This document shows positions 30,701 through 39,700 of a stretch of DNA of 64,000 nt, piece after piece (within the stretch, counting starts at the first letter, position 1; each line of letters starts with the position of its first letter). Origin of the DNA: Trypanosoma brucei (Eukaryota); assembly GCA_000002445.1 (NCBI GenBank), contig CP000071.1:96001-160000 (forward strand), written 5' to 3'. The position numbers were made by a program.

Positions 30701-33700
30701 AACTACCGAGGAAGCAGGCACGTGTGAAGCCAAAGCGGAGGAACAGAAAAGCCAAGGAACAGGAGAGGGAGCTTCAGGGACATCAGCTACAACTGGCTGT
30801 ACAAGGCACGGAACTGATAAGACTGCTTGTGAAAATGACAAAACAGGCGACAAGCAAAATTGCGCATGGAGAAAAGGTAAAGATGATGAGCCTGACAAGG
30901 AAACAGAAAAGTGCCGAAATGGTTGTTTTCTAGTAAATAATAAATTTGCTCTGATGACTGCTAGTTTTGCGAGTTTGGTAGCATTTTAATGACTACTGCT
31001 CTATTTTATGAAAATTTTGAAAATTTGATTTTGGGGGAAAGTTTGCATATATTTTCTAAATTTAATATATTTTAACGCTTTTGAAAAAAACGTGAAAATT
31101 TTTTAGAATTTGAAAAAGCCAAAAATGAAAATTTAGTACAATTTGTATGATAGTGGCCTGTATGTCCAAAGCATTAGAGCTATACGGTAAGAAAAGTTAC
31201 TATTAAAAATTATTTATTTGTTTATACTGCTTATTTTATGGATATTAGTTGGCGTTATATCAATAATGATAATAATACAAGAGTGTTGTAAGTGTGTGTA
31301 TCGAAACTTTTATGATAAGTTTGTGGTTACAACCGAATAAAAGAACAAAATAGAAGCACGTTAAATATTGGTAAGGTGAAACTGGAGTAATTGAGAGAGA
31401 AATAATTTATATAAATGAACAGGTGTATTATTATAAAGCATGATGCAGAGAGTGTGACGAAATATAAGGACTGTAAAACGCTGAAATAAGGACAGAACTA
31501 ACATAGGAAAGATTATGAAGGCAATAATCATGAAAGGGTACAGCGGGATTGAAAGAATAAACGCAGTTACTAAGTTTCAGGTAAAAGAAGAAAAGAGAGA
31601 TGCATCTGACGAATCACACAGTAAAAGCCTGGGTGGGCAGAATGAGAAAGTCCACATTCTTTTTTTTTGAATTTTCTTCGTGCCTTCGTGAGAGTTTTCC
31701 CCCACTGGCGCGGCCATCAGCCATCACCGTACAGCCCTGAGATGCTATCGGTCTGGCGACTGTGGCAGAGTCTCCCTTTTTTTCATTCATCCTAACACAC
31801 CCTCTATAATTTTTGTTGTAGCTCCGCAGTTGAACGGAATACAGCAGATGGGGCGAGAAGCCCCCCCTCCCTGGACTCTCCAAAAGATGTCAATTAGCAA
31901 TCCTTTTGTTTTGATTTTTGTTATTCGTTTATTATTCTCTCTCCCTCTTTCTGTTTCTGTTGCTTGTTGATTTCATACCCCCTCTGTCTCTAAGGGTGTC
32001 TGGACTATTCCTGCGTCCGGTGCTTTTCCTGCTAGCTCCACTCTCGGCAATAAGGGGGGAAGTTGCAGAAGGGAGAGTGGGTTGTATGACTGTTACCTTA
32101 GGTGAGGACTTCACCTGCGGCCGGCTCCGTTCAACCGCAATGAGAAACTGCGCCAGCCTTTTAGAGAAACATACATCCTGCACACACACTCCTTCTACCG
32201 AAAACCTCACACGTAATTCCTTCAAACCTGGACAGCTCATCAGGTGCAGCAACATTTCTTCGCAGTCGCCGCGTTGGCTGGTAACAGCGCGCTCTACCTT
32301 CATACCGTGCATCTTCTTTTGATGTAGGGTGAGGCCAGTTTTGCTAGCACACTGCCGTTCGCATGTCGGGCACACCAACATGGATGTGTTTGTATGCGGG
32401 GAATCAGTGGCACGCAATTTTGTGCTTTTGCTGCATTTAAGCTCGACTCCCTCACCTTTGTGGAAAGCCTTACAGTGTCGGCTGAGGGAGTCCCTGCAAC
32501 TGAGCACTTTTTGGCACACACTACACTGCACCTCCCTTTCCCCGGGATGTCAACGTTTCCCTCACGGGGACGCTTACGAGGGAATTGCACTACCATTACG
32601 GTACCGTCCTCAGTCACTATGCTCTTATGTTTGAATTTCTTGTGTAGTGACAGGGAAGAACGTGTACCGAAGCTCGCCTCGCACAGGTCACATTGAAACA
32701 GCAGCTTCCGTGTATCCTGAGAGGCTGGCGCTGCTGGGGCTCTACCATCTCCTTGCACTGAGTCTTCGTTCTCTCGTCCCCTTTTCACGCGGCAACTACC
32801 GCTACCTATGTCATGTATTGTTCTAAGGTGGTGTAATAGTCGGCCTGGCACTGCGAATTTGGAGGCACAGATGGTACAATAAAGCACCTGTGGTCTCATC
32901 GGGACTCGTGTGCTCGATGGTAGAGGAACGATCGCCACCACTGGAGGGGGCTCCGGGGGGATATCCACTGCAGGTGTTGCATCGCCGTATTTGATCTTCA
33001 AGAGGGCATCAGCTCGCACAAAGCCATGTTTGTTTACCATATGCGTTACAGCACTCGAGCGGCATTGGTATGTGGCATCACATTCCGTACATTTGGTCGG
33101 TTCGGAGGTTCTCTGAAGAGTGCGTGCCGCAACAGGTGGGGCTGTTTGTATTGTTGGTCCTATCGCTGCATGTTGCGGGTTACACCATCGGCACTGCGGG
33201 GGCACACTCGGGTTGATCTTTCGCAACATCCATCCATAGTGTCTTGAAGACCCAACCCGAAAGCGTGCCAGTGCCGTTTCTTCTTCCCTCGTCAGTTCTT
33301 CTTTATGTTTTGTTGGAAAGTGGTTGCCCGTGATACCAAACCTATGAGTGTTTTCATGGACTTCTTCCAACCTAAGCACTCGCTTCGCATAAGCAATGAT
33401 GTCGGGGATCCATGTGTCTCGCAATTGTGGTAAATATGCGGCCTTTTTGGCCATTTCATCGCAAACCTCATTCCGTTTCACGCCACAATGGCCAAACACA
33501 AATTGCAGTCGCATACGCAACTTCCTTCTCTGAACTTGAAGCAGAAGCCTCCATAGTCGTCTTAGAATTGGGTCCGTTACGGCTAGGGGGCCTGTCTGCA
33601 GTGCTGTTAACATTGACAGCGAGTCAGAGAAGATGGACAACCTGCTCGGTGTGCTTCTGTATACCGGAAGCCATTTCAGCAGCCGTTGCAGTCCTATCTC

Positions 33701-36700: not shown

Positions 36701-39700
36701 CGGAGCACAGCAGTGTTCCCCATGAAAGGAACGCTGCTGGCTCTTGGCTTCGCCCGATGATACGGGGTACTGGACCCTGGCACCACGTTGAGGTGGCCGG
36801 CATCGCCAGGGGAAACACAAGCAACCAGATCACACCAAAGAACAAAAGCCGACACAGCTTAACGACATACTCAACGTCAACATGACGATTTCCTGAAGCT
36901 CACAGCAGACCCTGGTGGACAAAATAAAAGAAAAATGCGACTTCGCTACATTTAAGCAAGACGCCGGCGCATCTTTCAGAGATATCAACCGGGAGGAAGA
37001 CTCAGCGGACTGGAAAGACGCCAAAAGCTCGTGGAACGTAGCGAATCCCCTCACGGTACACGCTTTGCTGCTACATAGCTTCAGGAGCATCGTCAACAAC
37101 AGGGCCAACGAAGCTCTGAAAAAGTTCAAAGAGACGCAAGCGACCGGACTCGACACAAACCCCAACATAATAGAGCAGATTAACGAAGCTCGAACAAAAG
37201 CGGCGTGCGCGAGCGACGGTATGTACGATCCCGCAGCAAAGACATGCAAAGCATCACAGGGCAATACAATCACAAAAACGGCAGAATGCACACCAGACAA
37301 AGCCGGAACGAGCATCGGCCGCGACCTGATCTGCCTGTGAGCTTCGACTAACGGAGCGGAATGTACCGGCACACACTTCACGCAGGATCAGATCAGCGTC
37401 GGCAACATCGTAGCAACTGCGTGGGAAAAAACGGTTGCGAAGTGCCCAAAAGCAAACACAGATCTCTCTTTAGACGTGGCAATAGACATCGTGCTAGCAG
37501 CTGTCGCAGCGCAAATCGGTGTAAACTAAAACAGCGCAGCAACAGCGCATACGCTCACGGGTGGAACTTATTCAACGAGTTGCGCCAATGCCGGCAGCAA
37601 CTGCATAGACTATTCGTAACACTACACCGGCAGCACAAAAGGTTTCTACAGCATCCCATGGGCCGCTCAACTGACAGAGGCACGCAACCTTTACAAAATG
37701 TACCAGGAATTTGTTGAAAACAACAAGCGGCTGAAAGCAGAGGTAAAGAAACTAAAAGCAACGATATCAATCAGAACTACTCCGACAACCTCAATAATTC
37801 TCCGGCAATACAAACACGCCAACAGGAGAATCCAGCGGAACTAGGGGTGACGACAAGCCGCAGGTAGAATGTGGAAAGATAACAACGCCAGATAATTGCA
37901 AACCAGATATGGGATGTAAATATAACGAAACTCCTAACAAATGCGAAGAAGATCCTAAAAGCCATGTTGTTCAAGCGAACCAAGAAACTGGAAAGACAGA
38001 TGGGGGTGTAAAATACTTAGAATATGAAATGAAGAATAGATGTGAGGCTGTCAACAGGGATGACCAAAAGAATTGTAAATGGAGAAGAGGGAAAAGAGGA
38101 CGAAGATGACAAGGATAGAGAAGTGCCGAAATGGAAGTTTTCTCATCAATAAGAAAATAGCTCTGATGGCTGCTGCTTTTGTGAGTTTGTTGTTATGACA
38201 ATTTTTAAAAGGATTTTTGCCCGATTTTATAAAATCTGTTATTTGTGATAATTTGACATATTTCTTAATATATGATATATTCTAACACTCTTTGATGAAA
38301 ACCTAAAAATCAGTAGAACTCTTTAAAAATACGTATGAAACTTTTTTACGGGTGTAACTTAGTACGGTGATAAGGTAGGTTAATGATTGCTTTTTCAATG
38401 TATATCCATTTTGGTTTTTTATAGCTATTAGTGATAGCCATATTGTAATGGTAAGTATAATAATAATAATGATAATAATGATAGGAGGGTGTATTGAGTG
38501 TGTATATACTAATTCTAATATTATAATAAATTGCTGTATAATATTGTGCATTTGCACGGCTGAGAATGGTATGTCTTGGTAAAGATTTCCTCGTTCACTC
38601 ACCCAGCATACCACCAAATCGTGCTCTTATGTGGTGCACAAACTTGTAATTTCTCTCTCAGAAAGAGACTTGTGAATATCATAAAGTAGTCACATTGTTG
38701 AAACACGGGTAAACACACGTATAAAAAATGCATATATTCATATATTTAACACATTTTGCGGTCTTATATCGTTTTTAATATCATAGATTGCCTATACTAT
38801 CCAGAGAGACAGCAATTCTCTTTCTAAACGGTTATTTACACGATGCATTTGGAACCTTCTTCAGTGTCAGCACACATATTATTTCCTGCGTCTTTGTAGA
38901 ACTCAAGGATGGTCAACTTATTTTATTCATATTTTAATTCACATATCGGAGGAACACACATTCAACTAAGCGCATGTCCATTAATTCTACCTACAGATAA
39001 TATTTTCAAAAGAAATCAGATGGAGGTATATTTCTTTTTACAGAATCATTTAATAACATATGCCGAAAAGCATGTATACAGTTAAAACAATTCTTGCTCA
39101 ATAAGCAACACGATATGGATATTTTGTCCTGAATCGGGAAATAAACCCATAAAATTACATTTTTACTTTTTGTCAGTTTATATGTGCACCAGCACCTCGC
39201 CATTCCCTCTTTTAAAATTAGATTTTCTAAAATTATTTCATAAATTATGAGAGAAAAGAAGAAAAACAATCTAGATTACCACACACACATACTCTGTCTC
39301 TCTCGTTCACACTATTATCAATTGTTTGATTTATTTAGAAGTGAATTATTGTTATTATTGATATTGTTTTTATTACTATAAAACATATATTGGTTCCTTC
39401 TTACACGCAAAGAGTGCGTCCTAAGATTTTTTCTCTGTAAATAGCACCTTCTCAAAAACTAACAACTTTATATCCCTTAAATTTCTCACCATCTTTATCG
39501 TTATCTCACACATTCACACTACTCTAATTTTCCCCTTTTCAGCTTAATTTCAAATATTGGTATTTCCTGTTTCTTTATTTTCTTAACATTTAGACATCAC
39601 CTTTTTTTGCCTGCATTAATGTCAATAAGGGATAGTATAACAAAATTATTATGGGGAAAAGATAAAGTGAGGAAAACAATCATCACGCGTGATCACTCAG

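What the first reader, a model, noticed from the sequence alone, without database searches (positions are those of the whole stretch)
31600..38198. An ingi element sits between a VSG upstream region and a 5'-truncated VSG coding sequence
Left of the element (31320-31650) is unique sequence of the kind found between 70-bp repeats and a VSG start. Right of the ingi 5' palindromic terminus the reading frame continues directly into VSG N-terminal-domain sequence. That sequence has no signal peptide, so roughly 70 codons are missing. This suggests an ingi insertion into, or an ingi-mediated deletion of, the 5' end of a VSG. It bears on how retroposons shape the silent archive. No obvious target-site duplication was seen by eye.
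Basis: partly seen in the sequence, partly recalled or inferred. Interest (0 to 1): 0.5.

Follow-up and report, generated by a model that had tools for sequence, protein, structure and literature searches.

The report
Chimeric ingi beside truncated VSG pseudogene
A dead, full-length ingi retroposon lies against a surface-antigen (VSG) pseudogene that lacks its first ~42 codons; its two flanks do not match each other, which fits the known way that recombination between ingi copies rearranges trypanosome chromosome ends.

Summary
A full-length ingi lies on the minus strand at 31660-36811, with its poly(A) at 31660-68 and its 5' signature ending at 36811. A published catalogue already lists it as "Complete INGI", T. 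brucei TREU927 chr8:127660-132811. Its 5' end directly abuts a B-type VSG pseudogene (36812-38198) that starts at about codon 43. So ~42 codons are missing, not ~70, and the gene also carries stops and frameshifts. The left flank is a 70-bp repeat (31259-31318) plus 340 bp of cassette-upstream-type sequence. There is no 12-bp target-site duplication (3/12).

New here: the ingi-VSG junction is base-identical in T. b. gambiense DAL972 and T. equiperdum, so it is old. The poly(A)-side flank in DAL972 is entirely different: a degenerate ingi-like (DIRE) fragment. TREU/DAL divergence steps from 5.2% to 3.1% at about 33.8 kb inside the element (p~0.001).

Best reading: an antisense ingi inserted into a VSG at codon ~43, and ingi-ingi homologous recombination later replaced the element's 3' part and everything beyond it. 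This is an ordinary, already-known kind of event at a subtelomere/core boundary. Interest is low.

The parts
29412..30989 (+). Intact B-type VSG upstream of the locus. It is XP_846885, 'VSG, atypical', T. b. brucei TREU927. Given for context.
   Evidence: Exact match in the protein collection. Pfam VSG_B plus C-terminal domain.
31259..31318 (+). 70-bp repeat that opens the next VSG cassette.
   Evidence: BLAST matches to the other 70-bp repeats of the window. Alignment A2.
31319..31659 (+). Left (3'-side) flank of the ingi. Up to ~31400 it is the loosely conserved block that follows 70-bp repeats in other cassettes; the rest is unique. It has no VSG coding sequence, no proximal upstream block and no DIRE.
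31660..36811 (-). Full-length but dead ingi (5152 bp). Listed as 'Complete INGI' at chr8:127660-132811.
31660..31668 (-). Poly(A) tail of 9 nt. It marks the 3' retrotransposition junction.
   Evidence: Sequence. The DAL972 copy has A6 at the same element end.
32300..34420 (-). ingi ORF fragment 3 (706 aa): RNase H and C2H2 zinc finger.
33741..33810 (.). Inferred crossover zone inside the ingi. TREU927/DAL972 divergence is 5.2% to the left and 3.1% to the right. A 54-bp indel lies at 33741.
   Evidence: Maximum chi-square 21.7, permutation p~0.0015. Sliding identity.
34447..35661 (-). ingi ORF fragment 2 (404 aa): reverse transcriptase.
   Evidence: RVT_1, E 5e-42.
35655..36811 (-). ingi ORF fragment 1: AP-endonuclease domain. 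The mechanical ORF runs on to 36845, into the VSG flank.
36733..36811 (-). 5' 79-nt ingi/RIME signature (Pr77).
   Evidence: 59/59 match at 36753-36811. The 79-nt extent comes from the literature (PMC3820030).
36812..38198 (+). B-type VSG pseudogene lacking ~42 N-terminal codons. It has in-frame stops and frameshifts but keeps its C-terminal domain and GPI signal.
38446..38530 (+). 70-bp repeat downstream of the pseudogene. It is the last one before the chromosome core.
39693..40691 (-). First core gene, a PAP2 phosphatidic acid phosphatase (XP_846886). It was used as the anchor to fetch orthologous loci.

Best explanation
An ingi retroposon integrated antisense into a B-type VSG, or VSG pseudogene, at about codon 43. 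This happened before T. b. brucei TREU927, T. b. gambiense DAL972 and T. equiperdum diverged, at the last VSG cassette before the chromosome-8 core. Homologous recombination (a crossover or a gene-conversion tract) later took place between this copy and another ingi inserted elsewhere. It replaced the 3' ~2 kb of the element and all DNA beyond its poly(A) tail. The outcome is a chimeric element with two canonical ends that stem from different insertion events. That explains three things: there is no target-site duplication, the VSG 5' end and its proximal upstream block are absent, and the present neighbour is an unrelated 70-bp-repeat region.

Shown: the anatomy, the absence of a TSD, conservation of the 5' junction, non-conservation of the 3' flank, and the step in divergence.

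Inferred: the order of events, the partner element, and which strain (or both) carries the derived left side.
For: 1. Both ends are exact canonical element ends, as retrotransposition makes them.
2. There is no 12-bp TSD, although ingi TSDs are reported as a constant 12 bp (PMC3820030). The flush match is 3/12 and the best local match has p=0.36.
3. The 5' junction ...CGCCAGGG|GAAACACAAGCAACC... is identical in DAL972 and T. equiperdum OVI.
4. Left of the poly(A), DAL972 has a different VSG followed by a DIRE 5' fragment that runs right up to the junction. tblastn aligns it to ingi aa 11-230, E 3e-20.
5. TREU/DAL divergence is 5.2% in the ingi 3' 2.1 kb. It is 2.9% in the 5' 3 kb, the same as the 3.1-3.3% in the unique flank. 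The best breakpoint is ~33810, permutation p~0.001.
6. The 5' flank matches the ingi4 endonuclease target signature at 6/10 positions in the correct register, p~0.03. This weakly supports a genuine insertion on the VSG side (signature from PMC3820030; test).
7. The ~1 kb block that lies 165-290 bp upstream of the ATG in the other B-type cassettes is absent.
8. ingi/RIME recombination is already cited as a cause of brucei/gambiense rearrangements (PMC2854126).
Against: - The partner element and any reciprocal product were not found. No catalogued TREU927 ingi/RIME 5' flank contains the expected GAATGTGGACTT. That fits a deletion, but it is negative evidence.
- The step in divergence could reflect rate differences along the element.
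- The DAL972 draft was ordered against TREU927. It could be mis-joined inside a 5-kb repeat, which would mimic both the different flank and the step.
- No third ingi copy was available to test whether the 3' and 5' halves belong to different lineages.
- The target-signature match is weak, because VSG antisense DNA is T/G-rich anyway.
Confidence: 0.6

Rival explanations
1. One retrotransposition event with a target-site deletion. The second-strand break fell far from the first nick, so the ingi went in without a TSD. At least ~1.2-1.6 kb of a single cassette was lost: the proximal upstream block, the 5' UTR and 42 codons. Under this reading the TREU927 arrangement is ancestral, and DAL972 differs through a later event or a mis-assembly.
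For: - The left flank is the start of a VSG cassette (70-bp repeat plus 340 bp) and the right flank is the remainder of a VSG. The two could therefore be parts of one cassette.
- There is no TSD.
- No reciprocal partner appears in the catalogue.
Against: - It needs an additional event or an assembly error to explain DAL972, and it does not predict the step in divergence at ~33.8 kb.
- The 5' flank keeps a partial endonuclease signature in the exact register expected for a normal TSD-forming insertion.
- Deletion-associated insertion is, to my knowledge, documented for L1 but not specifically for ingi.
Confidence: 0.2
2. The VSG had already lost its 5' end before this ingi arrived, for example at a junction with an older DIRE. 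The ingi then inserted at that junction. DAL972 would keep the ancestral arrangement, and TREU927 would have replaced its left side later.
For: In DAL972 the 15 nt next to the poly(A), GGAACACTAGTAATC, match the 15 nt next to the ingi 5' end, GAAACACAAGCAACC, at 11/15 and flush at both junctions. The frequency of such a match is 4e-4 per single test. The first ~6 residues after the junction cannot be assigned to VSG with confidence.
Against: - A 15-nt duplication is not the constant 12 nt reported for ingi.
- 27% mismatch is far above the 3-5% divergence of surrounding DNA.
- After roughly 50 register, length and strain combinations, the corrected p is only ~0.01-0.02.
- With a 15-nt TSD the target signature drops to 4/10 (offset +3).
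Confidence: 0.1
3. Assembly artefact. Reads from two different ingi copies were merged in the TREU927 chromosome-8 assembly, so the left and right flanks are not truly adjacent.
For: - The element is a 5.2-kb dispersed repeat.
- The left junction is seen only in TREU927.
- The T. equiperdum contig breaks 26 nt into the ingi.
Against: - The right junction is confirmed in three independent assemblies.
- The TREU927 chromosomes are finished sequence (own knowledge).
- The 5' 3 kb of the element has exactly the divergence of the unique flank.
Confidence: 0.05

Closest known systems
Tbingi/TbRIME non-LTR retroposons (ingi4 subclade), as catalogued in TREU927
   Same: It shares the 5' 79-nt signature, a length of ~5.2 kb, the domain order endonuclease-RT-RNase H/zinc finger, and a poly(A) tail. 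This very copy is listed as 'Complete INGI' at chr8:127660-132811.
   Different: It lacks the 12-bp TSD that defines a pristine insertion. Its ORF is broken into at least 3 pieces.
ingi/RIME-associated rearrangements between T. b. brucei 927 and T. b. gambiense DAL972 (Jackson et al. 2010, PMC2854126)
   Same: Synteny between the two genomes breaks at an ingi. That paper states that ingi and RIME recombine and cause several rearrangements.
   Different: This chr8 boundary case is not among the examples found in the passages read. Here the break appears to lie inside a shared element rather than being a presence/absence difference.
Recombination-mediated deletions between dispersed Alu/L1 copies in primates (own knowledge)
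   Same: A chimeric element has canonical ends and non-matching flanks, with loss of the DNA between two copies.
   Different: The host and element family differ. Here the setting is a subtelomeric antigen-gene array where ectopic recombination is routine.
RHS pseudogenes as ingi/RIME insertion hot spots (Bringaud et al. 2002; own knowledge, cited results)
   Same: A subtelomere-associated gene family member is disrupted by an ingi.
   Different: The host gene is a VSG, not RHS. No RHS sequence is present in this window region.

Membership tests
ingi (Tbingi, ingi4 subclade) | 5' 76-79-nt signature at the first base of the element | tested here: met
   59/59 match at 36753-36811. The catalogue aligns the element from consensus position 1.
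ingi (Tbingi, ingi4 subclade) | Length of ~5.25 kb covering the whole consensus, with a 3' poly(A) | tested here: met
   5152 bp, consensus positions 1-5254, both ends 'ok'. A9 tail. The shortfall is explained by 54-, 49- and 10-bp internal deletions relative to DAL972.
ingi (Tbingi, ingi4 subclade) | Encodes AP-endonuclease, reverse transcriptase, RNase H and a zinc finger, in that order | tested here: met
   Pfam Exo_endo_phos_2, RVT_1, RNase_H and zf-C2H2 in the three minus-strand ORF fragments.
ingi (Tbingi, ingi4 subclade) | A single uninterrupted ORF, giving autonomous potential | tested here: not met
   The ORF is split into 396-, 404- and 706-aa pieces in different frames. The DAL972 copy is broken into more pieces.
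ingi (Tbingi, ingi4 subclade) | 12-bp target-site duplication flanking the element | tested here: not met
   3/12 flush matches. No displaced copy within 60 nt.
ingi (Tbingi, ingi4 subclade) | Upstream target signature AxxxxxxxTxxxGTxGGxTxxx|xTxTxxTxxxxx | tested here: inconclusive
   6/10 positions in the exact register (window-wide p 0.03) and 7/10 at +2 (p 0.006 before correction). The T/G-rich VSG antisense strand inflates such scores.
B-type VSG gene | VSG_B N-terminal domain | tested here: met
   PF13206, E 1.6e-19. Only profile positions 41-351 of 352 are covered. The conserved Cys and N-glycosylation-like columns align.
B-type VSG gene | C-terminal domain and GPI-anchor signal | tested here: met
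   PF10659, E 4.6e-19, full profile. ...CRNGSFLINKKIALMAAAFVSLLL*.
B-type VSG gene | Start codon, signal peptide and an open reading frame | tested here: not met
   The sequence begins at the equivalent of residue 43. It has at least 4 in-frame stops and 2 frameshifts. Two of the stops are shared with DAL972 and T. equiperdum.
Chimeric retroposon produced by inter-element homologous recombination | Canonical ends but non-matching flanks (no TSD) | tested here: met
Chimeric retroposon produced by inter-element homologous recombination | One flank orthologous across strains and the other not | tested here: met
   The right junction is identical in three taxa. The left flank is unrelated in DAL972. 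Caveat: DAL972 is a draft assembly.
Chimeric retroposon produced by inter-element homologous recombination | An internal switch of ancestry within the element | tested here: inconclusive
   The step in divergence at ~33810 has p~0.001. No other ingi copies were available for a lineage test.
Chimeric retroposon produced by inter-element homologous recombination | A partner element or reciprocal product carrying the complementary TSD halves | tested here: not met
   The expected 12-mer is absent from all catalogued TREU927 5' flanks. 3' flanks and other genomes could not be searched.

The most novel reading that the evidence does not exclude
This ingi may be more than a one-off scar. It could be a recurrent 'hinge' at the chromosome-8 core/subtelomere boundary. 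Under this reading, whole VSG arrays are exchanged between chromosomes or haplotypes by crossovers inside the conserved element. Different strains would then share the element's 5' half and the core side but carry unrelated arrays beyond its poly(A) end.
Probability: 0.3. Interest if true: 0.45.

Novelty: already known. Interest (0 to 1): 0.22.

Why it matters
This is a clean, base-resolved example of how retroposons shape the silent VSG archive. An insertion removes a VSG's start, and the element then supplies dispersed homology that lets everything distal to it be swapped. It also marks the exact point where TREU927/DAL972 synteny ends on the left arm of chromosome 8. None of this changes current understanding. 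ingi-mediated rearrangements, VSG pseudogenes and retroelement-rich core/subtelomere boundaries are all established, and the element itself is already catalogued.

Tried and rejected
- A word-indexed protein search with the conceptual pseudogene translation found nothing. VSG N-terminal domains are too divergent for it.
- Exact-protein contig look-ups returned nothing for the neighbouring VSG, the window's PAP2, an ORF spanning the left junction and an ORF inside the pseudogene.
- The homologue search with the neighbouring VSG gave no orthologue with a contig. The one chromosome-scale hit (P0041, locus L003) is an unrelated internal VSG array. It was useful only for showing that the proximal upstream block is conserved.
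- An Rfam scan of 31500-38600 gave no credible hit and no ribozyme family at the ingi 5' end.
- The left-flank 12-mer AAGTCCACATTC recurs exactly inside the PAP2 gene (40500-40511, minus strand). There is no extended homology, so I treat it as chance.
- The left flank is not a DIRE or ingi fragment. tblastn with the ingi proteins finds nothing elsewhere in the window.
- A simple insertion is rejected: there is no TSD and the flank is wrong.
- Mutational decay of a TSD is rejected. 9 of 12 positions would have to have changed in DNA that differs by 3-5% between strains.
- The 2004 ingi distribution paper is not held in the library. The eLife 2026 TALE paper had nothing relevant.
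Full report
**Where the window comes from**

Exact protein look-ups identify the VSG at 29412-30989 as XP_846885. They identify the minus-strand gene at 39693-40691 as XP_846886, a PAP2 phosphatidic acid phosphatase. Both belong to T. b. brucei TREU927, on a 2,481,190-bp record, which is chromosome 8.

A published catalogue of TREU927 ingi/RIME copies lists a 'Complete INGI' at NC_007281:127660-132811, on the minus strand. Its 100-nt 5' flank is the reverse complement of window 36812-36911 (PMC4660242 Supplementary File 1). 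By inference the window is chr8:96,001-160,000. It covers the junction between a plus-strand VSG array and the chromosome core.

**The element**

- A T9 run at 31660-31668 is preceded, on the element's strand, by the canonical ingi 3' end.
- The 5' signature matches 59/59 at 36753-36811, with 0 expected by chance.
- The three minus-strand ORF fragments of 396, 404 and 706 aa carry, in order, the endonuclease, the reverse transcriptase, and the RNase H with zinc finger.
- The copy is therefore full length (5152 bp; consensus 1-5254, both ends 'ok') but non-autonomous.
- Relative to the DAL972 copy it has internal deletions of 54, 49 and 10 bp.
- No other ingi or DIRE sequence occurs in the window.

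**The right flank**

From 36813 the plus strand reads a B-type VSG. Pfam VSG_B (E 1.6e-19) covers profile positions 41-351 starting at residue 7 after the junction. The complete C-terminal domain (E 4.6e-19) and a GPI signal follow, ending at the stop 38196-38198.

In an alignment with nine intact B-type VSGs, the first residue pairs with residue 43 of the neighbouring VSG. The signal peptide and the first conserved Cys columns have no counterpart. About 42 codons (~126 bp) are therefore missing, not ~70.

The gene also has at least four in-frame stops and two frameshifts. Two of the stops are shared with the DAL972 and T. equiperdum orthologues. Two further stops and a 1-nt frameshift at 37769 are absent from DAL972. 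It is an old, decaying pseudogene.

**The left flank**

- The 70-bp repeat at 31259-31318 and the loosely conserved ~80 nt that follow such repeats in other cassettes are present.
- The remaining sequence, 31400-31659, is unique.
- In the other cassettes the 70-bp repeat lies 0.9-2.0 kb from the ATG.
- The B-type cassettes share a ~0.9-1.2 kb block that ends 165-290 bp before the ATG. That block is absent here.
- If both flanks once belonged to one cassette, at least ~1.2-1.6 kb has been lost.

**Target-site duplication**

ingi-clade elements are reported to carry a constant 12-bp TSD (PMC3820030). Here the flush 12-mers are AAGTCCACATTC and GAAACACAAGCA, which match at 3/12. The best local match between the 60-nt flanks is 7 nt, p=0.36.

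The VSG-side flank matches the published ingi4 target signature at 6/10 positions in the exact register, window-wide p=0.03. This is weak support for a genuine endonuclease-mediated insertion on that side.

**Orthologous loci**

I used the PAP2 gene as the anchor and fetched T. b. gambiense DAL972 chr8 (L001) and a T. equiperdum OVI contig (L002).

- The junction ...GGCATCGCCAGGG|GAAACACAAGCAACCAGATCAC... is identical in all three. The ingi/VSG junction therefore predates their divergence.
- The T. equiperdum contig stops 26 nt into the ingi.
- DAL972 aligns from the ingi poly(A) end rightwards through the pseudogene, the PAP2 gene and beyond.
- Left of the poly(A), which is A6 there, DAL972 has a different VSG followed directly by a plus-strand degenerate ingi-related element. 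That element aligns to ingi residues 11-230 right up to the junction, E 3e-20.
- In both genomes, then, the element has clean ends and unrelated flanks. Only the 5' side is shared.

**Divergence along the element**

TREU927/DAL972 mismatch frequency is 5.2% from the poly(A) to ~33810. From there to 41600 it is 3.1%, with 2.9% in the rest of the ingi. Maximum chi-square is 21.7 and the permutation p is ~0.001. A 54-bp indel sits at 33741.

The 5' 3 kb of the element behaves like the orthologous unique flank. The 3' 2.1 kb is more diverged, as expected if it derives from a different ingi copy in at least one strain.

**Interpretation**

The most economical account has two steps.

1. An antisense ingi inserted into a VSG at codon ~43.
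2. Homologous recombination with another ingi later exchanged the element's 3' part and the DNA beyond it. This removed the VSG 5' end and the original TSD copy.

No catalogued TREU927 ingi/RIME 5' flank carries the 12-mer expected of a reciprocal partner. That fits a deletion or a non-reciprocal event, but it is negative evidence. ingi/RIME recombination is already cited as a cause of brucei/gambiense rearrangements (PMC2854126).

**Rivals**

- A single insertion with a target-site deletion.
- Insertion at a VSG that was already truncated next to a DIRE. In DAL972 the 15 nt flush to each junction match at 11/15 (4e-4 per single test, roughly 0.01-0.02 after multiple testing). However, the length is wrong and the mismatch rate is too high.
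- Mis-assembly inside a 5-kb repeat. The DAL972 draft was ordered against TREU927, so its left junction and the step in divergence need confirmation.

**Verdict**

The element is already catalogued and the mechanism is a known one. The finding is ordinary and of low interest. Its only modest value is as a base-resolved example at a core/subtelomere boundary.

Noticed in passing
L001 19049-19706 (minus strand of L001; FN554971.1 ~13.33-13.99 kb): In DAL972 a ~660-bp degenerate ingi-related (DIRE) 5' fragment starts ~75 bp after a VSG's GPI signal, with a recognisable 79-nt-signature remnant. It is cut off exactly at the poly(A) of the oppositely oriented ingi. TREU927 has no counterpart in the window.
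   Followed up: partly
window 42819-45218: TREU927 has ~2.4 kb with no collinear counterpart in DAL972. Window 43566-44286 is 99% identical to a DAL972 segment that also aligns further right. This suggests a TREU927-specific tandem duplication of core hypothetical genes (ORFs 42767-43618, 43718-44671 and 45813-46628, none with a Pfam hit).
   Followed up: partly
window 55121-55146: An interstitial telomere-type repeat, (GGGTTA)x4.3, lies in the core part of the window, ~500 bp from the end of a 2451-aa minus-strand ORF (55635-62990) that has no Pfam match.
   Followed up: no
window 40500-40511 (minus) and 31648-31659 (plus): The 12 nt that abut the ingi poly(A), AAGTCCACATTC, recur exactly inside the PAP2 coding sequence. 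There is no extended similarity around it, so it is most likely chance.
   Followed up: yes
window 10153-11676: This intact B-type VSG is identical in protein sequence to 'VSG 1125.457' (APD73227.1) deposited from another T. brucei VSG repertoire. An archive VSG is therefore shared unchanged between strains. The neighbouring VSG at 29412-30989 has no close relative in the protein collection (best 42% identity).
   Followed up: partly
window 7051-8019 and 12919-14439: There are further VSG pseudogene fragments in the array. The one at 7051-8019 is the closest in-window relative of the ingi-flanked pseudogene (about 30% identity over the N-terminal domain) and also lacks its N-terminal part.
   Followed up: no
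window 36812-42558 versus L002 and L001: T. equiperdum OVI is 98.8% identical to TREU927 across the pseudogene and PAP2 region. DAL972 is only ~96-97% identical, well below the ~99.2% genome-wide coding identity reported for brucei versus gambiense. The boundary region seems to carry deeply diverged haplotypes.
   Followed up: no
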